This document shows, one piece after another, positions 9,409-61,037 of a DNA stretch of 64,000 nucleotides (position 1 is the stretch's first letter; the number at the start of each line of letters is the position of its first letter). Made by a program: the position numbers and the translations under genes. Under the pieces are notes generated by a model, which saw only the letters and a program-made list of their open reading frames with translations, did not search any database and was not told the origin of the DNA. Origin of the DNA: an uncultured Methanosarcinales archaeon (lineage in GTDB: Archaea > Nanobdellota > Nanobdellia > Woesearchaeales > JACPBV01); assembly GCA_964609455.1 (NCBI GenBank), contig CAZSRD010000001.1, forward strand, positions 70,920 through 134,919, written 5' to 3'.

Positions 9409-10731
<1,323 letters not shown>

Positions 10732-13490: not shown

Positions 13491-15377
<1,887 letters not shown>

Positions 15378-18987: not shown

Positions 18988-18988
18988 A

Positions 18989-21263: not shown

Positions 21264-22804
21264 CACCCACTGCAACTTTCGTAGCTTCTTTTCCCTTTCT
21301 TTCCTGATTTGAAGTCTTTTAATGCTTTACAATAAGTTGTTCTTCCGCATGGTGTTGGATATTTGCCTGTTAAGCAAGCAAGGCATAAATCGTTCTTTGG
21401 CAAGCCTATGCTCTTTATTAAGCCAGGAATTGTTTGATAGATTAAGGAATCTGCGCCCATATCTTTTGCTATCTTTGCGCATGTTTTTTCTGATATCTTT
21501 TCCGGGTCTATTGGCCTTTCATAATGAGGCAATAATAATTCACCAATAGTGGACATATCTATTCCATAGAAACATGGCGCTTTGATTGGCGGACATGTAA
21601 CTCTAACATGAACTTCTTCTGCTCCGCCGATCTCTTTTAGGAATTTAACGATCTGCTTTGATGTTGTTCCCCTTACAATGCTGTCATCAACCAGCAAAAC
21701 TTTCTTTCCTTTTAAGATTTCTTTTATAACGGTATACTTATTTCCTACCTTGTCTTCTCTTTTGCTTCCTTCAATAAAAGTTCTTCCTACAAACCTGTTT
21801 CTAATCAATCCTTCCATTGAAGGTATTCCTAGCTCGTAAGCGTAGGCATCGCCTGCTGCTTTTGCAGTATCTGGTACAGGCACAACAATGTGGTCAGATG
21901 TCATTGTTTCTGTCTCCAGCTTTGCTAATTCCTTGCCTAGGTTTGTTCTTGTGATATAAACAGATTTTCCGTCTAAAACAGAGCTTACGTTTGCAAAGTA
22001 TACCCATTCAAACATGCAGTATGCTTTCCTTGGTGATTTTGCAAACCTTTCTATCTTTATGTTTCCGTTTTCTGATGTTATCAGCTTTCCAGGCTCTAAG
22101 GGCTTAAAATCGTGCAGGCCAATATTTGTTAAGGCATTGCTTTCAGAAGCCACAAACAGGTTTCCGCCTTTAATTGAATAGCACATTGGCCTAAATCCTA
22201 AAGGATCCCTGCAAACAGTTAAATCACCATAACCATTTATGAAAGCTATGTTATAAGCTCCATCAAAATTTTTGCTTATGGATGAGAAAATATTTTTTAA
22301 AAGCGGTTTTTTGTATCCTTTAAGGTCCCTTGCCAGGTAATGCATTATTATTTCCGTATCATTATTAAGGACGAAATGATATTCTGTTTTTTCAACCAAG
22401 GGTTTTTTTAATTTTTCAAAATTGACCAAGTTTCCATTGAAGCAGAAGCTGAACCATTTCCACATCCTTCCGTGCTTTCTTTCAAATGGCTGCGCATATG
22501 TTTTATCGTTTGCTCCGCATGTTGCATAACGAACATGACCTATGCCCTTATTGCCTGCGTATTTTCTGAATAATTCCATGCTTCTTTGTACATTGCTTGT
22601 CCTGAAAACCTCATTTACTGTCCCTATATTCCTATAAGTATTGATTAACTGCGGCCTTTCTTTATTGTAGGTTGTTATGCCGGCTGATAATTGGCCTCTG
22701 TTTTGAAGGCTAAGAAGCATCCTATAAAGATAGAACAGAGCTTTATGGTCTTTTTTAAGAGAGACTGCAGCTACGCCGCATTCGTCTTTTATTTCACCAC
22801 TCAT
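21260..22804 (-). CDS. purF: Amidophosphoribosyltransferase (glutamine PRPP amidotransferase)
   Basis: Propeptide MSGEIKDE then the Cys nucleophile (CGVAAV). NRGQLSAG, a PRTase motif, and a Cys-rich C-terminus. The track ORF's extra 34 N-terminal codons were rejected. Confidence 0.85.
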   Translation of the reverse strand: MSGEIKDECGVAAVSLKKDHKALFYLYRMLLSLQNRGQLSAGITTYNKERPQLINTYRNIGTVNEVFRTSNVQRSMELFRKYAGNKGIGHVRYATCGANDKTYAQPFERKHGRMWKWFSFCFNGNLVNFEKLKKPLVEKTEYHFVLNNDTEIIMHYLARDLKGYKKPLLKNIFSSISKNFDGAYNIAFINGYGDLTVCRDPLGFRPMCYSIKGGNLFVASESNALTNIGLHDFKPLEPGKLITSENGNIKIERFAKSPRKAYCMFEWVYFANVSSVLDGKSVYITRTNLGKELAKLETETMTSDHIVVPVPDTAKAAGDAYAYELGIPSMEGLIRNRFVGRTFIEGSKREDKVGNKYTVIKEILKGKKVLLVDDSIVRGTTSKQIVKFLKEIGGAEEVHVRVTCPPIKAPCFYGIDMSTIGELLLPHYERPIDPEKISEKTCAKIAKDMGADSLIYQTIPGLIKSIGLPKNDLCLACLTGKYPTPCGRTTYCKALKDFKSGKKGKRSYESCSGC

Positions 22805-22957
22805 ATTATATATAATTAATATGAGGTTTATAAACTTTATGATTGAGCGTAGCGAAAGCATAAAGTATTGGGACAATAGGTTTTGTTTGGGATATTTATT
22901 TTCCACTTCAATAAAACTTAAATATAAGGTATCCTAATTTCTTGTAGGGGTGATTAA

Positions 22958-33644: not shown

Positions 33645-34442
33645 ATGGATAAAAAAACTGGAAGCCTGATTGACAGCTTGTACAGATGTCTGCAAGAGAG
33701 GTTTGAAATAAGGCACGAATCTGAATCTTTTGAAGTAGAGGTGTTATTTGAAGGTACGGACCTTGAAAGCAAGGTATGCTCAAGAAAGATGCAAAAGAAA
33801 TTAAGGGAAGTTGAAGCTTTTTTAACACAATTAAAAAATAATAACATGTTTTCTGATTCTTATTGTTATGTGGATTGGTGCTCTGGAAAAGGGATATTGG
33901 GTGCAGCAATAGCTTATTTGCTGCACGCAAAGACCTATCTTGTAGATAAGGATGCAAAAAATTTAAATGGGTTTGGAGAAATCAAAGAGAGGCTTGTATT
34001 AGAAGGTATTATTAAGTATATTAACACGGATGTTATTGAGAATCCATCACTTGGCATTAGGGGCCCATTTGTATATGTTGGTTTGCATTGTTGCGGGAAT
34101 GCACCTGATTATATAATTAACTATAGTATAAATGAAGAAAAACCCGAAGGAATTTTTATAGTGCCTTGTTGTTATGGCAAGATTGATCAAAATGCTTTTC
34201 CGATGGATGGTTCTTTTGGGCTGAGGGCTATACCTTTAGTTAAGTTTAGGGAGATATGCAAAATAGCAGATTATTTTGGGAAAGATGAAGCTAAATTGGC
34301 TTATGCAAGAAAAGCAATGTATATCATTGATGCCCTGCGTGTAAGAGTTCTTGAAGAAAGGGGTTATTCTGTTAAAATTGCAGAGTTTTTGCCAAGGGGG
34401 GTAACTCCTAAGAACCATATGATTATTGGGCAAAAGATATAA
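33645..34442 (+). CDS. SAM-dependent methyltransferase, Methyltransf_32/METTL25-like
   Basis: VDWCSGKGILG (motif I-like) and GLHCCGNAPD (the LHACGDL-like signature). 265 aa. Immediately downstream of pheST. Confidence 0.5.
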   Translation: MDKKTGSLIDSLYRCLQERFEIRHESESFEVEVLFEGTDLESKVCSRKMQKKLREVEAFLTQLKNNNMFSDSYCYVDWCSGKGILGAAIAYLLHAKTYLVDKDAKNLNGFGEIKERLVLEGIIKYINTDVIENPSLGIRGPFVYVGLHCCGNAPDYIINYSINEEKPEGIFIVPCCYGKIDQNAFPMDGSFGLRAIPLVKFREICKIADYFGKDEAKLAYARKAMYIIDALRVRVLEERGYSVKIAEFLPRGVTPKNHMIIGQKI

Positions 34443-34470: not shown

Positions 34471-35787
34471 GTGATTATCATGATATCAGTACTTTTAGTG
34501 GGGAATGGCGCTCGCGAGCATGCAATTGCAGAAGCTCTTGTCAGAAGCCCGCAGAAACCAAAGCTTTTTTCTTATATGAAATCTAATAATCCAGGTATTG
34601 CTAAATTATCTGAGCAGGTACAGATTGGCAAGTATAATGATCTAGATGAGATTGAGAATTTTGCTAAAAGCTCTAATGTAGAGTTTGCTGTCATTGGCCC
34701 TGAAGATCCATTAAGCAATGGAGTAGTTGATGCTTTGGAAGCTATAGGAATTCCTTGTGTAGGGCCTAAAAAGGAATTGGCTAGATTGGAAACATCAAAA
34801 TCATTTACAAGGTTACTTATGAAAAAATACAAGATTCCTGGAATGCCTAAGTTCAGGGTTTTTGAAAGTTTAGACGGAGTGATGGAGTTTATTGAAAAGT
34901 TAGATGGTGTTGTTGTAAAGCCAGATGGGTTAACCGGAGGAAAAGGTGTTAAGGTTCAAGGAGATCATTTTGAAACAAAGGATGAAGCTTATGCATATTG
35001 TGAAGATGTTTTGAAAAATCATAAAGCAGTTGTTGTTGAAGAGAAATTAGTTGGAGAAGAGTTCTCTTTGCAAAGCTTTACTGATGGAAAAAGCTTATTT
35101 GACTGCCCTCCTGTTCAGGACCATAAAAGGGCTTTTGTTGATGATAAAGGGCCTAATACTGGAGGAATGGGAAGCTATTCTACAGGCAAGTTATTGCCTT
35201 TTATGACTGAGCAAGATTTAAGGGAAGCACATGTAATTACTGACAAGATGAGAGAAGCTTTATTTAAAGAGTGCGGTGAGCTGTATAAAGGAGTCATGTA
35301 TGGCGGTTTTATATGCACAAAGAAAGGCGTTAAATTGATAGAGTATAATGCTCGATTAGGTGATCCTGAAGCAATGAATGTTTTGCCAATAATGAAAAAT
35401 GATTTTGTTGATGTTTGTAAAGCTATTATTGAAGGTACACTGCATAAGATAAGGCCTAATTTTTCTGAAAATGCAACTGTATGTAAATATGCTGTTCCTG
35501 AAGGCTATCCAACAAATCCTGTTGAAGGACAGAAGATATCTTTAGGTGAGGTGCCTGATAATGTAAAGGTATATTATGCTTCTGTCGACAGAAAAGATGG
35601 TGAGTTATACATGTCAAAATCAAGGGCAGTGGCTTTTGTTGGAATTGCTCCAACATTAGAACAAGCTCAGGTAATCGCAGAAGATGGTGTTTGTTCTGCA
35701 CAAGGACCAATATTCCATAGAGAAGATATTGGAACAAAAGAATTGATTGATAAAAGAATTGAACATATGGAAGAGTTGAGGGGTTAA
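34471..35787 (+). CDS. purD: Phosphoribosylamine--glycine ligase
   Basis: N-terminus VLLVGNGAREHAIAEAL, ATP-grasp core and C-terminal domain. The start is possibly at the third Met (34480). Confidence 0.9.
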   Translation: MIIMISVLLVGNGAREHAIAEALVRSPQKPKLFSYMKSNNPGIAKLSEQVQIGKYNDLDEIENFAKSSNVEFAVIGPEDPLSNGVVDALEAIGIPCVGPKKELARLETSKSFTRLLMKKYKIPGMPKFRVFESLDGVMEFIEKLDGVVVKPDGLTGGKGVKVQGDHFETKDEAYAYCEDVLKNHKAVVVEEKLVGEEFSLQSFTDGKSLFDCPPVQDHKRAFVDDKGPNTGGMGSYSTGKLLPFMTEQDLREAHVITDKMREALFKECGELYKGVMYGGFICTKKGVKLIEYNARLGDPEAMNVLPIMKNDFVDVCKAIIEGTLHKIRPNFSENATVCKYAVPEGYPTNPVEGQKISLGEVPDNVKVYYASVDRKDGELYMSKSRAVAFVGIAPTLEQAQVIAEDGVCSAQGPIFHREDIGTKELIDKRIEHMEELRG

Positions 35788-43489: not shown

Positions 43490-45016
43490 ATGATAAAAAG
43501 GGCATTGATTTCAGTTTTTGACAAGACAGGAATTGTAGAGTTTGCTAAAGAACTTGATAAATTAGGAGTTGAGATATTATCAACTGGGGGGACAGCTAAG
43601 AAATTAAAGGAAGCTGGCGTTAAGGTTAAGGATGTTTCTGAATATACTAAATTTCCCGAGATGATGGACGGCAGAGTTAAAACATTACATCCATTGATAC
43701 ATGGAGGTTTACTTGCTCTTAGAGATAATAAAGAGCACATGAAGCAGGCTAAAGATAACAATATTGAAATGATTGATATGGTTGTTGTCAATCTATATCC
43801 TTTTGAAGATACTGTCAAGAAAAAGGTTAGTTTTGAGGAAACAATTGAAATGATTGATATTGGCGGGCCTTCTATGATAAGGAGTGCTGCTAAGAATTTC
43901 AGGGATGTTATTGTGTTGACAGATCCTAAAGATTATGAGCCAATCCTAACTAAATTGAAGAAAAAGGAAAAGATTTCAATTGAAGAAAGGAAAAAGCTAG
44001 CTCAGAAAGTTTTTGAAAGAACGGCTGTTTATGATAGCATGATTGCAAGGTATTTAGGCGAGGAAGAGCTGCCTGATACAATGGTTTTAGCTTTCAATAA
44101 AGTACAAAACTTAAGATATGGTGAAAACCCTCATCAGAAAGGAGCTTTCTACAGGGAGCCTATCTTACATGAAACCTCAATTGTAAATGCTAAACAGCTT
44201 TGGGGCAAGGAGCTTAGTTATAATAATATATTTGATGGAGATGGAGCTTTAGAGTTGGTCAAGGAATTCAAAGCGCCTGCTGTTGCTGTAATAAAACATG
44301 CTAATCCATGCGGTGTTGCTTCCAGAGATACAATTGAGAAGGCATTTGAAGATGCATATAATGTTGATCCAATGTCTGCTTTTGGCTGTGTAATAGCAAT
44401 GAATAGGACTTGCAGCTTGAAGGTTGCTGAGATGAGTAAAGGAAAATTTATTGAATTATTAATAGCACCAAGTTTTGATAAAGATGCTTTAGAATTCTTA
44501 AAAGAAAATAAAAAGGATTGCAGAATCCTAGAAGTTGGAAAGTTAACAAAAGCTTCTGAAGGCTATGACATGAAAAAAGTTGTTGGTGGTATTCTAATTC
44601 AGTCAAGAGAATGGCCTGATGTTGATAAATTAGAGCTGAAATGTGTAACTAAAAGAAAGCCTAGCGCTAAGGAATTAGAGGATTTAAAGTTTGCATGGAA
44701 AGTCAACAAACATACTAAATCTAATTCTGTTGTTTTTGCTAAAGATAAAACTGGCTATGGCATGGGTGTTGGGCAGATGTCAAGGGTAGATGCTTCTATC
44801 ATTGCAAAAAGAAAATCTGCTGGAAGGGCCCAAGGGGGAGCTATGAGTTCTGATGCATTCTTTCCATTTCCTGATGCGGTTGAAGCTGCTGCTGAGGCTG
44901 GGATTAAATCAATCATTCAACCAGGCGGCGCTAAAAAAGATTCAGAAGTTATTACAAAGTGTGACGAGTTAGGGATTGCAATGGTGTTTTCTGGTGTGAG
45001 GCTGTTTAAGCATTAA
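43490..45016 (+). CDS. purH: Bifunctional AICAR transformylase / IMP cyclohydrolase
   Basis: N-terminal MGS-like domain (ALISVFDKTGIVEFAKEL, LSTGGTAK) and a C-terminal AICARFT domain. 508 aa. Confidence 0.9.
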   Translation: MIKRALISVFDKTGIVEFAKELDKLGVEILSTGGTAKKLKEAGVKVKDVSEYTKFPEMMDGRVKTLHPLIHGGLLALRDNKEHMKQAKDNNIEMIDMVVVNLYPFEDTVKKKVSFEETIEMIDIGGPSMIRSAAKNFRDVIVLTDPKDYEPILTKLKKKEKISIEERKKLAQKVFERTAVYDSMIARYLGEEELPDTMVLAFNKVQNLRYGENPHQKGAFYREPILHETSIVNAKQLWGKELSYNNIFDGDGALELVKEFKAPAVAVIKHANPCGVASRDTIEKAFEDAYNVDPMSAFGCVIAMNRTCSLKVAEMSKGKFIELLIAPSFDKDALEFLKENKKDCRILEVGKLTKASEGYDMKKVVGGILIQSREWPDVDKLELKCVTKRKPSAKELEDLKFAWKVNKHTKSNSVVFAKDKTGYGMGVGQMSRVDASIIAKRKSAGRAQGGAMSSDAFFPFPDAVEAAAEAGIKSIIQPGGAKKDSEVITKCDELGIAMVFSGVRLFKH

Positions 45017-45048
45017 ATTTATTAATCAGCTTAGAATTAGCCATAAAT

Positions 45049-46227
45049 ATGGACTATAATCAAACGATAAAAGAGATATACAGCCTTCATGGCTCTGAAC
45101 ATAAAGGCCATTTTAACCTTAGCTTGGATAATATCAAAATTCTTCTTAAAAAAATAGGAAATCCTGAGAAATCTCTTAAAGTAATTCATGTTGCAGGTAC
45201 TAATGGAAAAGGTTCGGTATGTGCGATGATTAGTTCTGTATTGAAAGAAGCAGGCTATAAGGTGGGGATGTATACTTCCCCTCATCTGAAGGAGTTCAGG
45301 GAAAGATTTTTGATTAATGGAAAAAAAATATCTGAAAAAGATCTAATTAATTATTTTAAAAAGATAAAACCATTTATAACAGACCAAACATTCTTTGAGG
45401 TTATAACTGCGATGGCTTTTCTTTATTTCAAGGATAAAAAAGTAGATTATCTGGTTTTGGAGGTTGGCTTAGGCGGCAGGTTAGATGCTACTAATGTTGT
45501 TGATCCTTTAGTTTCGGTTATAACAAATATTGGATTAGAGCATCAGGATTATTTAGGAGATACTATTAAAAAGATTGCTTATGAAAAAGCTGGGATTATT
45601 AAAGAGGGAAAACCGGTTGTTACTGGTGCTAAAGGTTCTGCTTTGAATGTTATCAAGAAGATTGCGAAGGATAAGGGCTGCAAGGTTTTTACAGACGGCA
45701 AACCAATAAATGTTCCTCTAAAATTAAAAGGGGAATTTCAACTAGTAAATGCTTCAATTGCTATGGAAACCATTAGGGTATTAAATCATTATTATAATTT
45801 AAAAATTAAAAAAAATGAAATAAATAATGGTTTGTTAAAAACTGTATGGCATGGAAGGTTGGAGTTTATCTCTAATAATGTATTAGTTGATTGCGCGCAT
45901 AATCCAGATGCTGTTAAAGCTCTAAAGAAAGAATTGCTGAAGATAAAAAAGGGGTATAATAAGATAATACTAATATTGGGTATACTAAAGGACAAGGATT
46001 ACAAGGCAATGATAAAAGAATTAAAACCATTAAGCAGCAGGACTATACTTGTAAAGCCAAATATACCCCGAGCCATAGACCCAAGGATACTTGCTGAGCA
46101 GATTGAGTTCAATTACATAATAATAGAGAATGTAAAGGCAGCTCTGGGTTATGCTAAGAAGATTGCTAAGCAAGATGACTTAATATTGGTTACTGGCTCT
46201 ATCTATGTTGTTGGAGAGATAATATAA
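45049..46227 (+). CDS. folC: Folylpolyglutamate synthase / dihydrofolate synthase (Mur-ligase fold)
   Basis: HVAGTNGKGS P-loop, YTSPHL, and the DCAHNPDA region. 392 aa. Confidence 0.8.
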   Translation: MDYNQTIKEIYSLHGSEHKGHFNLSLDNIKILLKKIGNPEKSLKVIHVAGTNGKGSVCAMISSVLKEAGYKVGMYTSPHLKEFRERFLINGKKISEKDLINYFKKIKPFITDQTFFEVITAMAFLYFKDKKVDYLVLEVGLGGRLDATNVVDPLVSVITNIGLEHQDYLGDTIKKIAYEKAGIIKEGKPVVTGAKGSALNVIKKIAKDKGCKVFTDGKPINVPLKLKGEFQLVNASIAMETIRVLNHYYNLKIKKNEINNGLLKTVWHGRLEFISNNVLVDCAHNPDAVKALKKELLKIKKGYNKIILILGILKDKDYKAMIKELKPLSSRTILVKPNIPRAIDPRILAEQIEFNYIIIENVKAALGYAKKIAKQDDLILVTGSIYVVGEII

Positions 46228-46281
46228 AATCCAAAAAATATATAAAGCAATATACTTAATCTTTCTTATAGGGGTGATTAT

Positions 46282-47061
46282 ATGCCTAAGGCGTTAGTAA
46301 TATTTGGCTCTAAATCAGATGCGCCTGTTTACAAGGAGATAATGCATGGATTGAAAAAAGAAGGTGTTGAAGCAGAATTAAGGATAAGCTCTGCGCATAG
46401 GACACCTGAAGAGCTTGAGCAGATAATAAGTTCTGATTATGACCTTATAATTGCAGGTGCTGGGTTAAGCGCTGCTCTGCCTGGTGTGATTGCTTCTAAA
46501 ACTATAAAACCAGTAATTGGCGTTCCTTGCCACGGCAGCTATCAAGGCCTAGACGCTTTGCTTTCTATAATGCAGATGCCTTCTGGGATACCTGTCTTGA
46601 GTGTTGGTGTCAATGCTGTTGATGCAGCTGTTAAGAACGCTACTAAAATACTGGGACAACATTCTACTGTTAATTTAATAAGCGAGGCGCCTAGTGAGGC
46701 CTTGAAAAAAGCAAAAGCAATCTTTGAGGAGTTTGACATTAAATTTAGTGAATCTGAAGGGCCAGAAGAGGATGGCATAAATATCGAATTTATAAGTTTA
46801 GATGAGCCAATACCTGAAAAGGAGCAATTAGTCATTTACTGCCCAGTATTGCTAAAAGATGATGACAAAGCAGAAGCTGCTTTGAATGTTTTAAAGCATA
46901 GTACACATGGCTTATGGGTGGGGCTGAATAATGGCAAGAATGCTGCTCTGGCTGCAATTCAAATTCTTAATGTGGGCAATAAGTATACACTTAAGCTAGA
47001 GGAGTTTAGGGATAAATTAAAGAGCCAGGTTAAGGAAAGCGATAAAGAACTTCAACAGTAA
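46282..47061 (+). CDS. purE: PurE (AIR carboxylase / N5-CAIR mutase) with a degenerate PurE-like C-terminal repeat
   Basis: The first ~150 aa have ALVIFGSKSDAPV and SAHRTPEEL. The C-terminal ~100 aa repeat a weaker PurE-like pattern (VGLNNGKNAALAAIQIL). 259 aa. Confidence 0.75.
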   Translation: MPKALVIFGSKSDAPVYKEIMHGLKKEGVEAELRISSAHRTPEELEQIISSDYDLIIAGAGLSAALPGVIASKTIKPVIGVPCHGSYQGLDALLSIMQMPSGIPVLSVGVNAVDAAVKNATKILGQHSTVNLISEAPSEALKKAKAIFEEFDIKFSESEGPEEDGINIEFISLDEPIPEKEQLVIYCPVLLKDDDKAEAALNVLKHSTHGLWVGLNNGKNAALAAIQILNVGNKYTLKLEEFRDKLKSQVKESDKELQQ

Positions 47062-47075
47062 GGAGGCTGGTTAGT

Positions 47076-48044
47076 GTGGCATCTGACAAGGGTATTAAGC
47101 AACAAATAAATTTTACATTAAATGAGACTAATTTTAAAGGTTTAGGTGAAAGAAAAAAAGGCAAGGTCAGGGATGTTTATGTTTCTGATGATAAAATATT
47201 TTTAATAGCAACTGACAGGCAAAGCGCTTTTGACAGAATATTGGCCAGAATTCCATTTAAAGGGCAGGTTTTAACACAGACATCTGTTTTTTGGTTTGAA
47301 CAGACAAAAGATATTATTGCTAACCATGTTATTGATGTCCCTGATCCAAATGTTGTTGTTTGCAAAAAATTGAAGGTATTTCCTGTTGAGGTTGTTGTAA
47401 GAGGATATATAACTGGCGTAACATCAACAGCAGCATGGACAGCTTACGCTAAAGGTGAGAGGAATTTTTGCGGGAATGTTTTGCCTGAAGGCCTGAAGAA
47501 GAACCAAAAGTTTGATACACCCATTATAACTCCAACAACAAAATCTGATGAGCATGATGAGAAGATTTCAGGAGAAGAGATTGTTAAAAAAGGATTAATG
47601 AGCAAGGAGCAATGGAGGCTTGTTTCTGCTAAATCTCTTGAATTGTTTGATAGAGGAACTGAGATTGCTGCAAAGAACGGCTTAATCCTAGTAGACACAA
47701 AATACGAATTTGGCTACGATTCCGAAGGGAATATATTCTTGATAGATGAGATTCATACACCTGATAGTTCTCGTTTTTGGATTAAAGAAACTTATGAAGA
47801 AAGGATTGCAAAAGGCGAAGAGCCAGAGAACATTGACAAGGAATTCTTAAGGTTGTGGTTTACAGAGCATTGTGACCCATATAAGGATAAGGTTTTGCCA
47901 GAGGCTCCTGAAGAGTTGGTAATTGAGTTGAGCAAAAGGTATATCCAGCTTTATGAGATGATAACAGGGAATAAGTTCAAGACTAAGGTTGGAGATGTTT
48001 CTAAAAGGATTGAGGAGAATTTGAAAAATGCAGGCTACATTTAA
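47076..48044 (+). CDS. purC: SAICAR synthetase
   Basis: The motifs KGKVRDVYVSDDKIFLIATDRQSAFD and LVDTKYEFG. GTG start. Confidence 0.9.
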   Translation: MASDKGIKQQINFTLNETNFKGLGERKKGKVRDVYVSDDKIFLIATDRQSAFDRILARIPFKGQVLTQTSVFWFEQTKDIIANHVIDVPDPNVVVCKKLKVFPVEVVVRGYITGVTSTAAWTAYAKGERNFCGNVLPEGLKKNQKFDTPIITPTTKSDEHDEKISGEEIVKKGLMSKEQWRLVSAKSLELFDRGTEIAAKNGLILVDTKYEFGYDSEGNIFLIDEIHTPDSSRFWIKETYEERIAKGEEPENIDKEFLRLWFTEHCDPYKDKVLPEAPEELVIELSKRYIQLYEMITGNKFKTKVGDVSKRIEENLKNAGYI

Positions 48045-48792
48045 ACAAACAGCTATCAAAGCGGCAAAAGAAGCTGGAAAGATACAATTAAGGTATTTTG
48101 CCAAGGGAATTAAAAAGAGCAGGAAAAAGGATGATAGTTTCGTTACTAAGGCGGATATTGAGAGCAGTGATAAAATAAGGCATATAATTCTTAAAAGGTT
48201 TCCAGAGCACAATATTTTATGCGAGGAGTATGGAAAAAGCAATAGGAAATCAGGCTATAAGTGGATTATTGACCCTTTAGATGGGACGCATAATTTTATT
48301 ATGGATAACCCTCTTTTTGGCGCTTCTATTGCACTAGAGCATGAAGGAGAAATTGTATTAGGTGTGATTTACCTGCCTGTTCTAAAAAGATTATATTATG
48401 CGGAAAAAGGAAAAGGGGCTTTTTGTAATGGAAAACGAATTAAGGTTAACAATGAAACTGATTTAAAGAAATGCTTGTTTATGTTTGATGCTAAGTTAAG
48501 AAGCAAAACTGATATGAAAATACGGATACTCAAAAAATTAGCAAAGTTAACATGGCGCTTTAGGGTTTATGGCGCTGCTGTTTACCATAGTTTGTTAGTT
48601 GCAGAGGGCAAAGCTGGGCTTAACATTGATTTTGACTCAAACTCGTGGGATCATTCTGCTGCTTTATTGATGGTTGAAGAAGCAGGCGGCAAAGTAACTG
48701 ATATTAACGGGAAAAAATGGAATCCTTATATGGAAGATTATATTGCTTCTAATGGGAAGATCCATAGTAAGGTTTTAAACGTTCTTAAATAG
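48028..48792 (+). CDS. Inositol-monophosphatase / FBPase-family phosphatase
   Basis: WIIDPLDGTHNF metal-binding motif and a C-terminal WDHSAA. 254 aa. Overlaps purC by 17 nt. Confidence 0.75.
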   Translation: MQATFKQTAIKAAKEAGKIQLRYFAKGIKKSRKKDDSFVTKADIESSDKIRHIILKRFPEHNILCEEYGKSNRKSGYKWIIDPLDGTHNFIMDNPLFGASIALEHEGEIVLGVIYLPVLKRLYYAEKGKGAFCNGKRIKVNNETDLKKCLFMFDAKLRSKTDMKIRILKKLAKLTWRFRVYGAAVYHSLLVAEGKAGLNIDFDSNSWDHSAALLMVEEAGGKVTDINGKKWNPYMEDYIASNGKIHSKVLNVLK

Positions 48793-48934
48793 TAAACAAT
48801 ATATATAATGTATTACAGTAAAGTTTATAAATAATGAACACTTCACTTATTCTATTCGTATCACATTCATAAAAACCACCAATAGAGGTTTTAATAAAAA
48901 AACCTACTCCCAAAAGAGATACGGGTTCTTTATT

Positions 48935-50644
48935 ATGTTGCCTTTGTTGGTGGTTTTTTATGAAATTAAAGAGGTAGATTATAAGATGGAACTATCAAAA
49001 CTGTTTACAAAGAAGAATATTGAAATTCTTAGGTTATTAGAAGAAGAATCTATGCACATAAGAGAGATTGCTGAAAAATTAAATATTTCTCCTGCTAAAG
49101 TGCATGGCACTATACAGCTTTTTAAGAAAAATAATATTATAAACATTATTGATGATAAGAACAGAAAGATCATAAAGCTAAATAAAAACAACAAGGTGCT
49201 TAAGAATATTGAGAATTTGATCAACCTAAAAGAAGGGGTATCAGGAGAAGAAGAGGACATAGCTTTGTTTGATAATATTTCCCCTTTAGACTTTAGGTAT
49301 TACGGGAGAAGTGATAAGGTTAAAGAGAAGTTAAGGCCTTACCTTTCTGAAGAGGGTGCTGTTCGTTACTTAGCCAGGGTTGAAGCTGCTTTGACAAGGA
49401 CATTAGCTAAGAAAGGGGTTTGCAGTAAAGCTATTGCTGACGAAGTTTCAAGAGCTTGCCACCAGATTACTGCTCAAGAGGTTTATTTGGAGGAAGACAA
49501 AATAAAGCATAATATCAGAGCTCTGGCTAATTCCATCCGTAAGAGGGTTTCTGATAAGGCTAAGCCTTATGTCCATTTTACAACAACATCCCATGATATA
49601 ATATGCACGGCAGATGCATCTCGCTTTAAGGATTTTTCAAACGAAGTTTTGATTCCTGCTTTAATCAATTTTGAAAGAACATTAATTTATTTGGCCTTAC
49701 GTGAAAAAAATACATTACAGATTGGAAGAACACACGGGCAGCATGCAGAGCCTATTACATTTGGCTTTGCAATCGCACAATATGTTTCAAGAGTTGGGGC
49801 CAGGATAAGGGCGGTTCATAAGGCTGCTAATAACTTACGCGGTAAAATTGCAGGGGCTGTTGGAGCATATAATGCTTCTTCGCTATTTTTTGCAGATCCA
49901 GAAGAGTTTGAAAGAGCGGTTTTAGCTGAATTAAAGCTTAAGCCTTCTCCGATCTCTACCCAGGTTGTAGAAGCAGAGTATATGGCTGATTATTTTCATT
50001 CAATAATCTCTTGTTTTGGTGTCCTGGCGAATTTGGCAGATGACATGAGGCATTTGCAAAGAAGCGAGATAGCTGAAGTTGCAGAAGCATTTGGAGAAAA
50101 ACAGGTTGGAAGCTCTACAATGCCGCATAAGAGGAATCCAATCAACTTTGAAAATGTTAAATCCATGTGGAAAGAGTTCATGCCAAGGATGAGCACCATA
50201 TATATGGACCAGATATGCGAACATCAACGAGATTTGACAAATTCAGCTTCATCAAGATTTGTTACGGAGATTTTGGCTGGTTTGTATGTTTCAGTTACAA
50301 GGCTGAACAAAACAATGAGCAAACTGGTAGTTGATAAACCAAATTTGAAAAAGAATTTTGATATGAATAAAGAGATGATAACAGCAGAGCCTGCATATAT
50401 TTTATTAGCAGCACATAATCATCCTGATGCGCATGAATATGTAAGGAAGCTTACATTGGAAAGCCAGCAAACAGGAAAGCCATTTAGGGAGCTTTTGCTA
50501 AGAGATCCTGGATTGAAGCCTTATTTAGATAAGTTCAGTAAAAGGCAGATTGAAATTTTAAAGAATCCTGAAAGGTATACGGGGATTGCTGCTAAAAAAG
50601 TAGAGAATATATGCGGCTTTTGGAAGAAAGAGCTGAAGATTTAA
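48935..50644 (+). CDS. purB: Adenylosuccinate lyase with an N-terminal ~100-aa winged-HTH domain fused in frame
   Basis: The wHTH is IEILRLLEEESMHIREIAEKLNISPAKVHGTIQLFKK. The PurB part runs from LDFRYYG through the fumarate-lyase signature GSSTMPHKRNP. 569 aa. A possible alternative start is MELSKL at 48986. Confidence 0.8.
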   Translation: MLPLLVVFYEIKEVDYKMELSKLFTKKNIEILRLLEEESMHIREIAEKLNISPAKVHGTIQLFKKNNIINIIDDKNRKIIKLNKNNKVLKNIENLINLKEGVSGEEEDIALFDNISPLDFRYYGRSDKVKEKLRPYLSEEGAVRYLARVEAALTRTLAKKGVCSKAIADEVSRACHQITAQEVYLEEDKIKHNIRALANSIRKRVSDKAKPYVHFTTTSHDIICTADASRFKDFSNEVLIPALINFERTLIYLALREKNTLQIGRTHGQHAEPITFGFAIAQYVSRVGARIRAVHKAANNLRGKIAGAVGAYNASSLFFADPEEFERAVLAELKLKPSPISTQVVEAEYMADYFHSIISCFGVLANLADDMRHLQRSEIAEVAEAFGEKQVGSSTMPHKRNPINFENVKSMWKEFMPRMSTIYMDQICEHQRDLTNSASSRFVTEILAGLYVSVTRLNKTMSKLVVDKPNLKKNFDMNKEMITAEPAYILLAAHNHPDAHEYVRKLTLESQQTGKPFRELLLRDPGLKPYLDKFSKRQIEILKNPERYTGIAAKKVENICGFWKKELKI

Positions 50645-50711
50645 ATTAAACCTTTTGGTTTAATAATCTCTAAACCAAAACTTTATATATTCCAATAAAA
50701 TTCATGTTTTT

Positions 50712-51830
50712 ATGGATATAGATTACAAGAAAACAAAGGTTTTCTCTAATCCGGTAAAGCCCTCACAAGGTTCGGACTTTACGGATTACCAAAAAAGAGA
50801 AGCCAAAGCAGTTAGCGCTATAAAGAAAGCTATACCTTCTTCTTTAAAGAAAAATATGGTTTATGGTGAAGGGATGTTTGCTGAGCTGTATTCTAATGAT
50901 AAGGTATTTCCTAATCATTTAATGGCTTGTGCTATTGATGGCGTTGGAACTAAATTATTGTTAGCTGAGGAGATGGAAAAGTATGATACTATTGGCATTG
51001 ATTTAGTTGCTATGTCTGCGAATGATTTGGCTACTCTTGGGAAGGTTTCTCCGTTTTTGTTTATTGATTATTTTGCTGTTCAAAATGAATTTGAGGAGAT
51101 GGGTTTAACTGGAGACTTGATGAAAGGGATTGTTAAGGGATTAGAGATGTGCGATGTTGGAGACATCTTAAGAAGCTCTATACATGTTAATATTGGAAAA
51201 GGTGAAACTGCCTCTGTTGATGAGATGGTAAAAGGCTTAAAGCCAGGAATGGGATTTGATATCGCTGGCGGTTTAATTGGTTTTATGAAAAAAGAAGATC
51301 TTAATACTTCTGTAAAAGTTGGAGATAAGATAATTGCTTTGAAAAGCTCTGGAGCACATTCAAATGGCTATACTGACTTAAGGTTGAAGTTTTTAAAAAA
51401 TAGAAAAATAGAGGATAAGTTTGATGGCTCTACAATTGGAGAGATTTTATTAGAGCCAACGAGGATATATTCTAAAACAGTTGCTGCTATTGCTGATAAG
51501 GTTAAATTAGTAGGAATTAACAATACTGGATATGGGCTAAAGAACCTGAATAGGGTAAAAGGGGTGCAGTTTGAGATTAATGCTCCTATTAAGCCGCAGC
51601 CGATATTTGAGCTTGTGCAGAAAGAAACTAAGTTTTCAGATGAAGATATGTACAGGAAGTTTAATATGGGCCAGGGTTTCTTTTTGATAGTTGATTCAAA
51701 AGATGCTGACAATGCTGTTTCTATTGCCTCTAAGTTTAAGGATGAAGCTAAAGTAATTGGAGAAGTTAAGAAAGGAAGTGGAACTGTTCTTTTAAAAGAT
51801 AATAAAAAGATATTGTTTGAAGGGTATTAA
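50712..51830 (+). CDS. purM: Phosphoribosylformylglycinamidine cyclo-ligase (AIR synthetase)
   Basis: AIDGVGTKLLLAEEM and the PurM N/C domain pattern. 372 aa. Confidence 0.85.
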   Translation: MDIDYKKTKVFSNPVKPSQGSDFTDYQKREAKAVSAIKKAIPSSLKKNMVYGEGMFAELYSNDKVFPNHLMACAIDGVGTKLLLAEEMEKYDTIGIDLVAMSANDLATLGKVSPFLFIDYFAVQNEFEEMGLTGDLMKGIVKGLEMCDVGDILRSSIHVNIGKGETASVDEMVKGLKPGMGFDIAGGLIGFMKKEDLNTSVKVGDKIIALKSSGAHSNGYTDLRLKFLKNRKIEDKFDGSTIGEILLEPTRIYSKTVAAIADKVKLVGINNTGYGLKNLNRVKGVQFEINAPIKPQPIFELVQKETKFSDEDMYRKFNMGQGFFLIVDSKDADNAVSIASKFKDEAKVIGEVKKGSGTVLLKDNKKILFEGY

Positions 51831-55707: not shown

Positions 55708-56550
55708 TCATTTCAATCTTTTCCTATAGGTATTAGCAATCATCTTTTCATCTTTTTTAACTCTTCTTTCAAGTTTCTTGATATCTTCTTCAGGAGGCAG
55801 TTCTTCTGGTTTTATTCCTCTCTTGGATAATAAGCCCCTTACTTCCGCATTATTCCTTACATGTTCGCCAGTTATTCTATCTTCACCTTCAAGATTATCT
55901 TTCTTTACATTAAAATTAGTGATTTCTGTAGCTAGATTCTTTGCTGTGATAGTGATTGTTGGAAGAAAATCTGCTAAAGGCCTGTTCTTATGGATTTTAA
56001 GCTTACTTTTCATCATGGCAGTAGTATAACCTCCAAATAATGCTTTATCCCCTTTGCTTCTTATTCTTGCAAATCCTGCTTCATCAACTCCCTTTTCATA
56101 GATTAGCTTAGAAAGCTCTGTCTCAGATGCCACTAATTTCTGCCTTGCACTTAATCTTTCAATTAGTGCAATCCTTTCTTCAATCAATTCTTGTTTTCTT
56201 GTTTGTACTGCAAAATAACTTTGAGCAAAAGCTATCTGCTCTTTTCTAGGATCTCCGTTTTGAGCAATTAAATAACATGCATATCTTGTAAGCATGATAT
56301 CCTCAATTTCCCTCTCTGCTTCAGAACCAATCTTGACCTTTTTCCTGATGTCAGGAAAATGGTCGCTTACCTCCTGTCCCGAGTTCCTGCAGGATTCTTT
56401 TGCTTTGGCAATTACATTTAGAAAATTCTCCCATTTATTATACCCTAATAACTGCTGCAAATCTCTTGCAAACCAAAACTCTATGCCATCAGCTTCATTA
56501 GCATAATCCTCAAAGGATTTTCTAAGTTTTATTATAATCTCTTTTTTCAT
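55708..56550 (-). CDS. DinD / RhuM-family (DNA-damage-inducible protein D-like) protein, a common mobile-element cargo
   Basis: N-terminus IIKLRKSFEDYANEADGIEFWFARDLQQLLGYNKWENFLNVIAKAKESCRNSG matches the conserved DinD/RhuM N-terminal block. 280 aa. Confidence 0.6.
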   Translation of the reverse strand: MKKEIIIKLRKSFEDYANEADGIEFWFARDLQQLLGYNKWENFLNVIAKAKESCRNSGQEVSDHFPDIRKKVKIGSEAEREIEDIMLTRYACYLIAQNGDPRKEQIAFAQSYFAVQTRKQELIEERIALIERLSARQKLVASETELSKLIYEKGVDEAGFARIRSKGDKALFGGYTTAMMKSKLKIHKNRPLADFLPTITITAKNLATEITNFNVKKDNLEGEDRITGEHVRNNAEVRGLLSKRGIKPEELPPEEDIKKLERRVKKDEKMIANTYRKRLK

Positions 56551-56680: not shown

Positions 56681-56755
56681 TGCCCCCAACGGGATTTGAA
56701 CCCATGTCCCAGCCTCGAAAAGGCTGAATGATTGACCGGACTACACCATGGGGGC
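56681..56755 (-). tRNA. tRNA-Glu (anticodon TTC)
   Basis: Reverse complement reads GCCCCCA-...-CAGCC-TTTTCGA-GGCTG-GGAC-ATGGG-TTCAAAT-CCCGT-TGGGGGC-A. Confidence 0.85.
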
Positions 56756-56806
56756 GTAAGTATTGAGTTTTCTAATTTTTTTATAAATCTTTGTTTTTGT
56801 AAAGAG

Positions 56807-56912
56807 TGGGCTCGCAGGGATTTGAACCCCAGACCGCCGGCTCACTTAGAGCCGTTTGCCTAGAACGTGGCCATATAAGACCGGCGCTCTAACCAGGCTG
56901 AGCTACGAGCCC
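56807..56912 (-). tRNA. Intron-containing tRNA with apparent anticodon TAT (tRNA-Ile2-like). 31-nt intron at the canonical 37/38 position (plus coordinates 56843-56873).
   Basis: Acceptor GGGCTCG/CGAGCCC and an Ile/Met-type D-arm AGCTCAGCCTGGTTAGAGC. Anticodon stem CCGGT/GCCGG with loop CTTATA|intron|A. Intron-end TAAG pairs with loop CTTA (a BHB-like arrangement). 106 nt precursor. Confidence 0.6.
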
Positions 56913-56964
56913 ATTAAGGTAAGAGAATAAGTATTTTGTTTATAAATATTTTTGTTTTGATAAA

Positions 56965-57036
56965 TGCGACGGCCGGGATTTGAACCCGGGTGAGAGCCTT
57001 GGCAAGGCCCTATCATAACCGCTAGATCACCATCGC
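56965..57036 (-). tRNA. tRNA-Gly (anticodon GCC)
   Basis: Anticodon arm GGGCC-TTGCCAA-GGCTC, T-arm CCGGG-TTCAAAT-CCCGG, acceptor GCGATGG/CCGTCGC. Confidence 0.85.
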
Positions 57037-57039
57037 AGA

Positions 57040-57112
57040 TGGGCCCAGCCAGAGTCGAACTGGCGACTTACACCTTGTAAGGGTGTTGTCATAACCACTA
57101 GACCATGAGCCC
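57040..57112 (-). tRNA. tRNA-Val (anticodon TAC)
   Basis: Anticodon arm ACACC-CTTACAA-GGTGT, T-arm GCCAG-TTCGACT-CTGGC. Only 3 nt separate it from tRNA-Gly. A TTTATATG TATA-like box sits ~-24 to -31 relative to the 5' end. Confidence 0.85.
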
Positions 57113-57131: not shown

Positions 57132-57956
57132 TTGTCATATAAAAAGCTTTTTATATTTACACATTTAATTGGTAAAATAATGGAAGAATTAGTGACAAAT
57201 GCGGAACAAGAGCCACATGAAAAGATATTTGAAATGCTATTTGATAAGGATGAGGTTACTTGGCAGGCCCTCATCCATGAATTGGTTAAATCTGAGCAGA
57301 TTGATCCTTGGGATGTCAATATTTCATTATTAACAAAGAAATATATTGAGACGATACAAAAACTAAAAGAGCTTGACTTTAGGGTTTCTGGAAAAATGTT
57401 ATTAGCTGCTGCAATCCTGTTAAAGATAAAATCGAATAAATTAGTTGGAGAGGATATAGAGTACCTTGACAGATTGATTTCACAAGAGGATGATGAAGAA
57501 TTAAGCTTTGAGGAAGAGCTTGAGCCTAGGCCAAAAGAAGACATACCTACTAGTTTGATACCAAGAACACCTCAGCCAAGAAAAAGAAAGGTTTCTATTT
57601 ATGATTTGATGGGGGCTTTGGAAAGGGCTTTAGAGATAAAAAGAAGGAGGGTACTTAAAAGCATACCCCCTATGGATGTTCACATCCCAGAGAAGAAGAA
57701 GGACATTTCAGCTATAATAAAAGACATTTATGGAAAGATTAAGCTGTTTTTCTGGGAGCATAGAAAAGATAGATTAACTTTTTCTAATCTTCTTCCTGAA
57801 GGCGCATCAAAAGAAGATAAGGTATATACCTTTGTTCCTCTGCTTCACCTTACAAACCAGAGAAAGATAGATGTATTCCAGCAGCAGCACTTTGGAGAGA
57901 TTGACATTGTATTGAGGCAGACAACAGAAGAAGTTGATAAAGAACTCGGGATATAA
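57132..57956 (+). CDS. scpA: Segregation and condensation protein A (kleisin)
   Basis: IHELVKSEQIDPWDVNISLLTKKYIETI matches the ScpA N-terminal block. The likely true start is MEELVTN at 57180. Confidence 0.7.
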   Translation: MSYKKLFIFTHLIGKIMEELVTNAEQEPHEKIFEMLFDKDEVTWQALIHELVKSEQIDPWDVNISLLTKKYIETIQKLKELDFRVSGKMLLAAAILLKIKSNKLVGEDIEYLDRLISQEDDEELSFEEELEPRPKEDIPTSLIPRTPQPRKRKVSIYDLMGALERALEIKRRRVLKSIPPMDVHIPEKKKDISAIIKDIYGKIKLFFWEHRKDRLTFSNLLPEGASKEDKVYTFVPLLHLTNQRKIDVFQQQHFGEIDIVLRQTTEEVDKELGI

Positions 57957-60053: not shown

Positions 60054-61037
60054 GTGGTTTTAATGACAAAGAAGATCAGTTTATTGGCTGGAACATCTAA
60101 TTTAGAGCTAGCTAAGGAAATATCTTCACACCTAAAGGTAGAACTAACGCCTATAGAGGTTAAGAACTTTAATGATGGGGAGGTATATGTGCATATTGAA
60201 AAGAGTGTAAGGGGCTCTACTTTGTTTATAATCCAATCTACTTCTCCTCCAGTAAATGACAAGCTGATGGAACTTTTGCTGATTATTGATGCCTGCAAAA
60301 GGGCTTCTGCAAAAGAGATTAATGTTATTGTGCCTTATTATGGCTATTCAAGGCAGGATAGAAAAGCTCTGCCAAGAGAGCCAATATCTGCTAAATTAGT
60401 GGCTAATTTGATTGAAGCAGCAGGAGCAGATAGGTTAGTTACTTTTGATTTGCATGTGGACCAGATCCAGGGATTTTTTGATATACCTGTTGATAATTTG
60501 GAAGCAGTATCCTTGATTGCTAATTATCTCATAGATAAAAAATTAAAGGATGTTGTTGTAGTTTCTCCAGATGTTGGCGGGGCAAGGAGAGCAAGAAGAT
60601 TAGCTAAGATATTAGATGTAAATATTGCAATAATAGACAAGAGAAGGCCAGCACATGGTGTTGCAGAGATAATGAATATTATAGGAGATGTAAAAGATAA
60701 GGATTGTATTTTATTTGATGATATAATTGATACAGCAGGCACTATATCAAATGGCGCTAAGGCTTTAAAAGAAAGCGGGGCAAGGAATATTTATGTGGCA
60801 GCAACACATGCTTTATTCTCAGGACCTGCTGTTGAAAGACTACAAGATGATGCAATTAAAGAGATTATAGCCACAAACACAATCGAAATACCTAAAGAGA
60901 AGATATTTAAAAAGTTAAAAGTTATATCTTTGGCGCATTTATTAGCTGATTCGATAACAAAGATCTATGAAGGCACGCCAATGGGCATTCTTTTTGACGA
61001 TTTGTATAACAAAATAAAGAAAAAAAGGCCACTATAA
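60054..61037 (+). CDS. prs: Ribose-phosphate pyrophosphokinase (PRPP synthetase)
   Basis: PYYGYSRQDRK, the PRPP-binding VVVSPDVGG and DDIIDTAGT. 327 aa. Confidence 0.9.
   Translation: MVLMTKKISLLAGTSNLELAKEISSHLKVELTPIEVKNFNDGEVYVHIEKSVRGSTLFIIQSTSPPVNDKLMELLLIIDACKRASAKEINVIVPYYGYSRQDRKALPREPISAKLVANLIEAAGADRLVTFDLHVDQIQGFFDIPVDNLEAVSLIANYLIDKKLKDVVVVSPDVGGARRARRLAKILDVNIAIIDKRRPAHGVAEIMNIIGDVKDKDCILFDDIIDTAGTISNGAKALKESGARNIYVAATHALFSGPAVERLQDDAIKEIIATNTIEIPKEKIFKKLKVISLAHLLADSITKIYEGTPMGILFDDLYNKIKKKRPL

What the first reader, a model, noticed from the sequence alone, without database searches (positions are those of the whole stretch)
56807..56912. Intron-containing tRNA with anticodon UAU. 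Possible AUA decoding without agmatidine, as described for Nanoarchaeota and Korarchaeota.
The Ile/Met-type tRNA in the minus-strand cluster folds with anticodon stem CCGGT/GCCGG and loop CUUAUA|A. A 31-nt intron sits at the canonical 37/38 site, and intron 3' TAAG pairs with loop CUUA, as in a BHB motif. The anticodon reads UAU.

Most archaea decode AUA with a CAU anticodon modified to agmatidine by TiaS. A genomically encoded UAU is a rare, lineage-restricted trait.
Basis: partly seen in the sequence, partly recalled or inferred. Interest (0 to 1): 0.65.

Follow-up and report, generated by a model that had tools for sequence, protein, structure and literature searches.

The report
Intron-containing archaeal tRNA-Ile with UAU anticodon
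This is a real, intact archaeal isoleucine tRNA gene with a 31-base intron and a UAU anticodon, which probably reads the very common AUA codon directly; that solution is already known from Nanoarchaeum, Korarchaeum and ARMAN archaea and proves common among DPANN archaea, so it is a sound but ordinary find.

Summary
Window 56807-56912 (minus strand) is a tRNA gene (Rfam RF00005, 54.1 bits, threshold 29). A 31-nt insertion sits between positions 37 and 38. ARAGORN in intron mode independently calls tRNA-Ile(tat) with the same intron. Loop bases C32-A35 (CUUA) pair with intron UAAG, flanked by bulges UA|U and UG|A, which is a canonical bulge-helix-bulge splice motif. Splicing gives the loop CUUAUAA with anticodon UAU.

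The gene is identical in six independent metagenome assemblies. In 23 DPANN orthologues the spliced cloverleaf is 99.8% paired, with 14 of 21 pairs showing compensatory changes. AUA is the commonest Ile codon in the window (48% of Ile codons). The host looks like a Woesearchaeota-like DPANN archaeon.

The literature already describes tRNA-Ile(UAU) without TiaS in N. equitans, K. cryptofilum and ARMAN. I could check for TiaS and tRNA-Ile2(CAU) only in about 75 kb, where both are absent, so that result is inconclusive.

Verdict: a new member of a known kind, of low to moderate interest.

The parts
56807..56912 (-). Complete pre-tRNA-Ile(UAU) gene, 106 nt. No CCA is encoded and the discriminator is A73.
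   Evidence: Rfam RF00005 54.1 bits, model positions 1-71 of 71. ARAGORN -i calls tRNA-Ile(tat) i(40,31).
56874..56912 (-). 5' exon, tRNA positions 1-37. It ends in the loop bases C32 U33 U34 A35 U36 A37.
   Evidence: Direct reading, Rfam alignment, ARAGORN -i.
56875..56877 (-). Anticodon U34 A35 U36, read 5'-UAU-3' on the minus strand.
   Evidence: The loop CTTATA was required by the pattern that retrieved the orthologues, so its invariance among them is by construction.
56843..56873 (-). 31-nt intron at the canonical 37/38 site: UGGCCACGUUCUAGGCAAACGGCUCUAAGUG.
   Evidence: It is 24/31 identical, and equal in length, to the intron of the Woesearchaeota-labelled locus L091 (counted by eye).
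56845..56848 (-). Intron UAAG, the 3' strand of the central 4-bp helix of the bulge-helix-bulge motif. It pairs with C32-A35 at 56876-56879. The flanking 3-nt bulges are U36 A37|U (56873-56875) and U G|A38 (56842-56844). The inner helix h' is G-C plus G.U (56871-56872 with 56849-56850).
   Evidence: [quoted passage not shown]
56807..56842 (-). 3' exon, tRNA positions 38-73.
56939..56946 (-). TTTATAAA, a candidate archaeal TATA box 27-34 nt upstream of the mature 5' end. This is an inference. Similar boxes precede tRNA-Val (TTTTTATAT, 57137-57145) and tRNA-Glu (TTTATAAA, 56780-56787).
   Evidence: Direct reading. Not tested statistically.
56681..56755 (-). tRNA-Glu(UUC), the downstream neighbour. 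The Ile(UAU)-Glu(UUC) adjacency recurs in about 14 DPANN loci.
56964..57112 (-). tRNA-Val(UAC) at 57040-57112 and tRNA-Gly(GCC) at 56964-57037, the upstream members of the cluster. Both lack introns.

Best explanation
This is a functional archaeal tRNA-Ile(UAU) gene (tRNA-Ile3) in a Woesearchaeota-like DPANN archaeon. It is transcribed from its own TATA-like promoter as a 106-nt precursor. Loop bases C32-A35 pair with the intron's UAAG to form a bulge-helix-bulge motif. The archaeal splicing endonuclease cuts in the two 3-nt bulges, between 37 and 38, and a ligase joins the exons. CCA is then added. The 75-nt product has the loop CUUAUAA with anticodon UAU. Charged with isoleucine, it reads AUA, which is the most used Ile codon in this AT-rich genome. 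By analogy with N. equitans, K. cryptofilum and ARMAN it most likely replaces the usual archaeal system of tRNA-Ile2(CAU) plus TiaS (agmatidine). Shown here: the gene, intron position, BHB motif, anticodon, conservation and covariation, and AUA usage. Inferred: splicing, Ile charging, any U34 modification that prevents AUG misreading, and absence of TiaS.
For: The tRNA model matches at 54.1 bits with the insertion after position 37. ARAGORN -i independently calls Ile(tat) with a 31-nt intron. The BHB has 4 of 4 central pairs, bulges UAU and UGA, and a 2-bp h'. The same central helix is complete in 18 of 21 genes and fits the published definition. The gene is identical in six separate metagenome assemblies. 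In 23 DPANN sequences the spliced cloverleaf is 99.8% paired, 14 of 21 pairs have double-sided changes, and 0 of 500 shuffles reach these values. AUA makes up 39.6 per 1000 codons and 48% of Ile codons in 27 window genes. AUA positions align to Ile in the syntenic relative L052 as often as AUU and AUC positions do (60% against 56% and 58%), whereas only 1 of 23 AUG positions aligns to Ile. No tRNA(CAU) and no TiaS-like ORF was found in the window or its flanks. ARMAN-2 pre-tRNA-Ile(UAU), with a 25-nt intron at 37/38, was spliced in vitro.
Against: Only about 75 kb of the genome was inspected, so absence of TiaS and tRNA-Ile2(CAU) is not established. No expression, splicing, charging or modification data exist. 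Thermodynamic folding alone predicts neither the BHB nor the cloverleaf. The isolated anticodon arm scores -11.3 to -11.8 kcal/mol in the BHB form against an MFE of -17.1 to -19.3. The same shortfall is seen in all 19 orthologues folded, and for the mature cloverleaf itself, so this test is uninformative rather than contrary. The lineage assignment rests on NCBI labels of MAG contigs, and L052 is only a 4.8-kb binned contig. No splicing endonuclease gene lies in the window.
Confidence: 0.82

Rival explanations
1. The tRNA-Ile(UAU) is functional but redundant. The genome also encodes TiaS and tRNA-Ile2(CAU) elsewhere, so AUA is still decoded mainly through agmatidine.
For: Only about 75 kb was inspected. 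This genome is metabolically richer than a typical DPANN genome, with a near-complete purine pathway, so it may have lost fewer genes.
Against: In every archaeon with tRNA-Ile(UAU) described in the papers read, TiaS and tRNA-Ile2(CAU) are absent. The very heavy AUA usage and the strict conservation of the gene fit a principal decoder.
Confidence: 0.13
2. The intron is excised at another position, so the mature anticodon is not UAU. Cutting after position 34 would give the loop CUUGUGA with anticodon UGU (Thr). ARAGORN makes an analogous slide in several orthologues, calling Ser(tga), Ala, Glu or Tyr.
For: ARAGORN -i miscalls 7 of the orthologous genes by sliding the intron. Enumerating the splice positions that leave a 7-nt loop gives UAU when at least 4 loop bases come from the 5' side. 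It gives UGU or AGU otherwise (direct reading).
Against: The BHB motif fixes both cuts at 37/38. Rfam and ARAGORN agree on this for the window. The tRNA body has a 5-nt variable loop, so it is not a Ser-type tRNA. The CUUA:UAAG helix is conserved across the orthologues. No alternative BHB register exists in the sequence.
Confidence: 0.02
3. It is a decaying or non-functional tRNA pseudogene.
For: None specific. The T stem has two G.U pairs and position 31-39 is U.G.
Against: All four helices are intact and the standard invariant bases are present (U8, A14, G18-G19, U33, GTTCAAATC T-loop). The gene is identical in six assemblies. Orthologues show compensatory substitutions. U31.G39 is itself conserved in 19 of 23 sequences. 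A TATA-like box sits upstream.
Confidence: 0.02

Closest known systems
tRNA-Ile(UAU) ('tRNA-Ile3') of Nanoarchaeum equitans and Candidatus Korarchaeum cryptofilum
   Same: Both are genomically encoded UAU anticodons in an archaeon. The K. cryptofilum gene also contains an intron. These genomes lack tRNA-Ile2(CAU) and TiaS. The window's host appears to belong to the wider DPANN group that includes N. equitans.
   Different: Absence of TiaS and tRNA-Ile2(CAU) is not shown here. The host is a mesophilic, freshwater-metagenome organism with 36% GC and a near-complete purine pathway, not a hyperthermophile. The paper derives the K. cryptofilum gene from tRNA-Ile(GAU). The origin of the window's gene was not determined.
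Pre-tRNA-Ile(UAU) of ARMAN-2 (Micrarchaeota), Fujishima et al. 2011, PMC3239211
   Same: Same anticodon, an intron at 37/38, and a strict hBHBh' motif. ARMAN-2, -4 and -5 lack TiaS and tRNA-Ile(CAU). The precursor was cleaved in vitro by the ARMAN-2 endonuclease.
   Different: The intron is 25 nt there and 31 nt here. The inner helix h' here has only 2 bp (G-C, G.U). The type of endonuclease in this genome is unknown.
Eukaryotic tRNA-Ile(UAU) with intron-dependent Psi34/Psi36 formation by Pus1
   Same: UAU anticodon, an intron at 37/38, and decoding of AUA. The intron is retained in nearly all genes of the lineage. In yeast the intron is needed for Psi-A-Psi formation (PMC4090602).
   Different: This is an archaeal BHB-type intron in a different domain of life. 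No evidence exists here for pseudouridylation or any intron-dependent modification.
Bacterial tRNA-Ile(UAU) of Mycoplasma mobile, Bifidobacterium and Neorickettsia, which lack TilS
   Same: A UAU tRNA replaces a C34-modifying enzyme system. The scan also found many such genes in CPR/Patescibacteria and Planctomycetes.
   Different: The bacterial genes have no BHB intron, belong to a different domain, and use different IleRS and ribosome adaptations.
Canonical archaeal AUA decoding: tRNA-Ile2(CAU) modified to agmatidine by TiaS
   Same: Same task, reading AUA as Ile without reading AUG.
   Different: The genomic anticodon here is TAT, not CAT, so no C34 is available for TiaS to modify. This gene is not a member of that system.

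Membership tests
tRNA (Rfam RF00005) | Cloverleaf sequence and structure profile match above the gathering score | tested here: met
   54.1 bits against 29, model positions 1-71 of 71. The cloverleaf is 99.8% paired across 23 orthologues.
Archaeal BHB-intron pre-tRNA | A 4-bp helix that includes the first two anticodon bases, flanked by two 3-nt bulges carrying the splice sites (hBHBh') | tested here: met
   CUUA:UAAG helix, bulges UA|U and UG|A, outer helix formed by the anticodon stem, inner helix of 2 bp. Definition from PMC4090602.
Archaeal BHB-intron pre-tRNA | A splicing endonuclease (EndA) and an RtcB-type ligase in the genome, and actual excision of the intron | not testable with these tools
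   No EndA-like ORF lies in the window. The rest of the genome is not available and there are no RNA data.
tRNA-Ile(UAU) AUA decoder (tRNA-Ile3) | Mature anticodon UAU | tested here: met
   The BHB fixes the junction.
tRNA-Ile(UAU) AUA decoder (tRNA-Ile3) | AUA is used and behaves as an Ile codon in the host | tested here: met
   AUA is 48% of Ile codons. AUA positions align to Ile, Leu or Val like AUU and AUC positions, and unlike AUG positions (one relative only).
tRNA-Ile(UAU) AUA decoder (tRNA-Ile3) | Aminoacylation by IleRS | not testable with these tools
   A73, A37 and U36 are compatible with Ile identity, but nothing was tested.
TiaS-free AUA decoding (N. equitans / K. cryptofilum / ARMAN type) | No tiaS gene in the genome | tested here: inconclusive
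   Nearly all non-overlapping ORFs of at least 120 aa in the window were scanned with Pfam or NCBIfam and none hit a TiaS family. The flank genes listed show none either. This covers only about 75 kb.
TiaS-free AUA decoding (N. equitans / K. cryptofilum / ARMAN type) | No tRNA-Ile2(CAU) gene in the genome | tested here: inconclusive
   The window holds five tRNAs: Gln CUG, Val UAC, Gly GCC, Ile UAU and Glu UUC. None has a CAU anticodon. The rest of the genome was not seen.
Eukaryote-like intron-dependent modification of tRNA-Ile(UAU) | U34/U36 modification that requires the intron-containing precursor | not testable with these tools
   The evidence is circumstantial only. The intron is present in 21 of 24 DPANN tRNA-Ile(UAU) genes, against 1 of about 22 neighbouring tRNAs.

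The most novel reading that the evidence does not exclude
In DPANN archaea the 37/38 intron of tRNA-Ile(UAU) is retained because the precursor, with U34 and A35 held in the BHB helix, is the required substrate for a modification of the anticodon. That could be pseudouridine or another U34 modification that blocks AUG misreading. This would be an archaeal counterpart of the eukaryotic Pus1 / Psi-A-Psi system and a possible evolutionary link between the two. The conserved U31.G39 and C32/A38 could be part of the same tuning. The evidence does not exclude this reading and hints at it only through the lineage-wide association of the intron with this one tRNA.
Probability: 0.15. Interest if true: 0.6.

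Novelty: new member of a known kind. Interest (0 to 1): 0.3.

Why it matters
How a U34 tRNA can read AUA without misreading AUG is a long-standing question, and bacteria, archaea and eukaryotes have each solved it differently. Archaea that carry tRNA-Ile(UAU) are the least studied case, and no modification data for them appeared in the papers I read. This locus adds a clean example from a host where AUA is the dominant Ile codon. The comparative set gathered here also shows three things. The trait is widespread in DPANN archaea rather than confined to three curiosities. The gene nearly always keeps a BHB intron at 37/38. It usually carries a U31.G39 pair. These regularities give concrete targets for experiments, but the locus itself does not change what is known.

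Tried and rejected
1. Default ARAGORN did not report the gene. This is a tool setting, since intron search is off by default, and not evidence against the gene. With -i it is found.

2. MFE folding of the precursor, of the isolated anticodon arm and even of the mature tRNA gives neither the cloverleaf nor the BHB. The same is true of all 19 orthologues folded, so I dropped this as a test.

3. I enumerated alternative intron placements that would give UGU or AGU anticodons, and looked at ARAGORN's Ser, Ala, Glu and Tyr miscalls of the orthologues. I rejected them because the BHB register and the class-I tRNA body contradict them.

4. The weak Rfam 'Plastid-ycf2' hit at 57039-57112 (+), 31 bits against 65.7, is the antisense strand of tRNA-Val and is an artefact.

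5. Literature searches for TiaS or agmatidine together with DPANN, and for TilS together with Candidate Phyla Radiation, found nothing relevant.

6. I tried to walk beyond the window to look for tiaS, endA or tRNA(CAU). This added only about 10 kb (enolase, iPGM, GalT on one side and unannotated ORFs on the other) and nothing relevant.

The window's own genome was not identified, and the count of genomes with the trait is a lower bound.

8. I looked for a box C/D guide RNA inside the intron, as in the tRNA-Trp intron. The 31-nt intron is too short and has no UGAUGA or CUGA boxes (direct reading).

Full report
**The observation**

Read on the minus strand, window 56912 to 56807 is:

GGGCTCG TA GCTC AGCCTGGTTA GAGC G CCGGT CTTATA [TGGCCACGTTCTAGGCAAACGGCTCTAAGTG] A GCCGG CGGTC TGGGG TTCAAAT CCCTG CGAGCCC A.

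- Rfam's tRNA model matches exactly these coordinates end to end at 54.1 bits (gathering score 29, E = 7.6e-9 over the 64-kb window). Its alignment shows one large insertion directly after CUUAUA.
- ARAGORN with default settings misses the gene.
- With intron search switched on, ARAGORN reports tRNA-Ile(tat) with a 31-nt intron between 'ttata' and 'agccg'.
- The stem CCGGT/GCCGG, the loop CUUAUA|A, the 31-nt intron and the CUUA:UAAG pairing are therefore all confirmed.

**The splice motif**

A review of tRNA introns defines the archaeal bulge-helix-bulge (BHB) motif. It is a 4-bp helix flanked by two 3-nt bulges that carry the splice sites, and the first two anticodon bases form part of the helix (PMC4090602).

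Here the motif reads as follows:
- C32 U33 U34 A35 pair with intron U A A G (56845-56848).
- The 5' bulge is U36 A37|U and the 3' bulge is U G|A38.
- The anticodon stem is the outer helix.
- G-C plus G.U form a short inner helix.

This register fixes the cuts at 37/38 and gives the mature loop CUUAUAA with anticodon UAU. I listed every other excision that would leave a 7-nt loop. Those that keep at least four 5' loop bases still give UAU. The rest give UGU or AGU, and none of them has a BHB to support it.

Thermodynamic folding does not recover the BHB or even the mature cloverleaf. The same holds for all 19 orthologues I folded, so I treat MFE prediction as uninformative here.

**Is it a live gene?**

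- The gene is base-for-base identical in six independent assemblies from ENA, JGI and Logan samples.
- About 24 of those loci are archaeal. All carry DPANN labels: Woese-, Pace-, Nano-, Aenigmat-, Micr- and Iainarchaeota and Nanohaloarchaea.
- I removed the introns and aligned 23 archaeal sequences. The cloverleaf is 99.8% paired, and 14 of 21 pairs carry changes on both sides. None of 500 shuffles reaches these values, and slid registers drop to 24-45% paired.
- The D arm and the loop are invariant by construction, because the search pattern required them. The acceptor, anticodon and T stems are not constrained by the pattern, and they covary.
- The central BHB helix is complete in 18 of the 21 intron-containing genes.

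**The host**

The window encodes archaeal markers:
- two-subunit archaeal-type PheRS, ribosomal proteins S3Ae and S17e, prefoldin, and two PurP paralogues;
- GyrB and a near-complete de novo purine pathway.

GC content is about 36%. Three lines place it near Woesearchaeota:
- The Woesearchaeota-labelled contig L052 is syntenic over the tRNA cluster, ScpA, prefoldin, FtsY and a DEAD helicase, at 38-68% amino-acid identity.
- The Woesearchaeota-labelled L091 has the most similar intron, also 31 nt and 24/31 identical.
- The order Ile(UAU) followed by Glu(UUC) recurs in about 14 DPANN loci.

I conclude that the host is a Woesearchaeota-like DPANN archaeon. The caveat is that this rests on the labels of MAG contigs.

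**Function**

- In 27 confident genes of the window, AUA accounts for 39.6 codons per 1000 and 48% of Ile codons, more than AUU or AUC.
- In alignments to L052, AUA positions pair with Ile in 60% of cases. This matches AUU (56%) and AUC (58%). Only 1 of 23 AUG positions aligns to Ile. AUA is therefore read as Ile and needs an efficient decoder.
- Each of the three tRNA transcription units is preceded by a TTTATAAA-like box about 25-34 nt upstream of the mature 5' end (direct reading). This fits archaeal promoters.
- No CCA is encoded.

The most likely mechanism runs in five steps: transcription, BHB cleavage by EndA and ligation, CCA addition, charging by IleRS, and decoding of AUA. Every step after transcription is inferred from what is established for archaeal tRNA processing. 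ARMAN-2 pre-tRNA-Ile(UAU) was cut in vitro by its own endonuclease.

**The agmatidine question**

Most archaea read AUA with tRNA-Ile2(CAU) modified by TiaS. N. equitans, K. cryptofilum and ARMAN-2, -4 and -5 instead carry tRNA-Ile(UAU) and lack both TiaS and tRNA-Ile2(CAU).

- The window has five tRNAs and none has a CAU anticodon.
- No ORF scanned in the window hits a TiaS family.
- The roughly 10 kb of extra flank I could reach holds nothing relevant.

This is too little of the genome to decide. By analogy I put about 0.7-0.8 on this tRNA being the sole AUA decoder and about 0.13 on redundancy with a TiaS system.

**Comparison and novelty**

The gene meets every testable defining feature of an archaeal BHB-intron tRNA and of a UAU-anticodon tRNA-Ile. 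It is not part of the TiaS system, because there is no C34 to modify.

The trait has been reported repeatedly. Only 2 of 167 mostly cultured archaeal genomes had it. Yet my capped scan shows it in at least 24 DPANN species genomes and in about 90 bacterial ones. For this lineage it is expected rather than surprising. I file it as a new member of a known kind.

**What is left that is interesting**

- Of 24 DPANN tRNA-Ile(UAU) genes, 21 carry an intron at this site. Only 1 of about 22 neighbouring tRNAs in the same loci does, and none of the window's four other tRNAs does.
- K. cryptofilum and ARMAN-2 also have the intron.
- Eukaryotic tRNA-Ile(UAU) has an intron that is required for Psi34/Psi36 formation.
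- U31.G39 is conserved in 19 of 23 sequences and C32/A38 in 20 of 23.

This suggests, but does not show, that the intron and the anticodon-arm features take part in tuning U34 so that it does not read AUG. I give that reading about 0.15.

Noticed in passing
Loci L007-L126: About 90 of the 120 species genomes matching the tRNA(UAU) pattern are bacterial. Most are CPR/Patescibacteria (Saccharibacteria and Parcubacteria groups). Others are Planctomycetes (Gemmataceae, Pirellulales), Chloroflexota and several Streptomyces, one of them on a plasmid (L027). tRNA-Ile(UAU) therefore seems common in both ultrasmall radiations, CPR and DPANN. A literature search for TilS plus Candidate Phyla Radiation found nothing.
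   Followed up: partly
window 56837-56841 / 56880-56884 and alignment A1 columns 34/42: The bottom pair of the anticodon stem is a U31.G39 wobble in 19 of 23 DPANN tRNA-Ile(UAU) genes, including the window's. C32 and A38 are present in 20 of 23. This is a conserved anticodon-arm signature whose significance is unknown.
   Followed up: partly
L026, L032, L037, L040, L047, L052, L060, L084, L091, L111, L113, L117 and window 56681-56912: tRNA-Ile(UAU) is followed by tRNA-Glu(UUC) on the same strand in about 14 DPANN loci. The spacing ranges from 9 nt to about 2 kb. This is conserved micro-synteny across the Woese/Pacearchaeota-labelled genomes.
   Followed up: partly
L037, L047, L071, L077, L091, L104, L111, L115: ARAGORN in intron mode miscalls these orthologous tRNA-Ile(UAU) genes as Ser(tga), Ala(tgc), Glu(ctc) or Tyr(ata) by sliding the intron. 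Automated annotation of DPANN MAGs may therefore under-report tRNA-Ile(UAU).
   Followed up: partly
window 9409-10725, 17962-20299, 20313-22906, 34471-35787, 43490-51830, 60054-61037: The window holds a near-complete de novo purine pathway. It includes purA, two PurP paralogues (DUF1246/DUF1297), the GMP synthase C subunit, purF, purD, purH, purE, purC, purB fused to an N-terminal HTH domain, purM and PRPP synthase. Folate enzymes are also present (SHMT, FolD, 5-FTHF cyclo-ligase, an FPGS-like Mur ligase). This is unusually rich for a DPANN-affiliated genome.
   Followed up: no
window 48935-50644 (+): Adenylosuccinate lyase carries an N-terminal winged-helix / HVO_A0114-type DNA-binding domain (residues about 19-81). 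This is an enzyme-regulator fusion.
   Followed up: no
window 33645-34442 (+): A TRM13 / Methyltransf_32-like methyltransferase lies immediately downstream of the PheRS beta gene. Trm13 is known as a eukaryotic tRNA 2'-O-methyltransferase (from memory).
   Followed up: no
window 55708-56550 (-): A DinD / Bro-N family protein sits about 130 nt downstream of the tRNA cluster. It scores 363 bits to NCBIfam NF008573, the 'DNA damage-inducible protein D' equivalog. This is a bacterial or phage-like gene next to tRNAs and may have been acquired horizontally.
   Followed up: no
window 13497-15377 (+): A DNA gyrase B subunit is present in this DPANN-like archaeon.
   Followed up: no
window 57039-57112 (+): A sub-threshold Rfam hit to 'Plastid-ycf2 5'UTR' (31 bits against 65.7) is simply the antisense strand of tRNA-Val.
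   Followed up: yes
L104 (Aenigmatarchaeota-labelled), about 4692-4842 (-): This tRNA-Ile(UAU) orthologue appears to carry two introns. One is in the anticodon loop and the second lies between the variable region and the T arm (direct reading).
   Followed up: no
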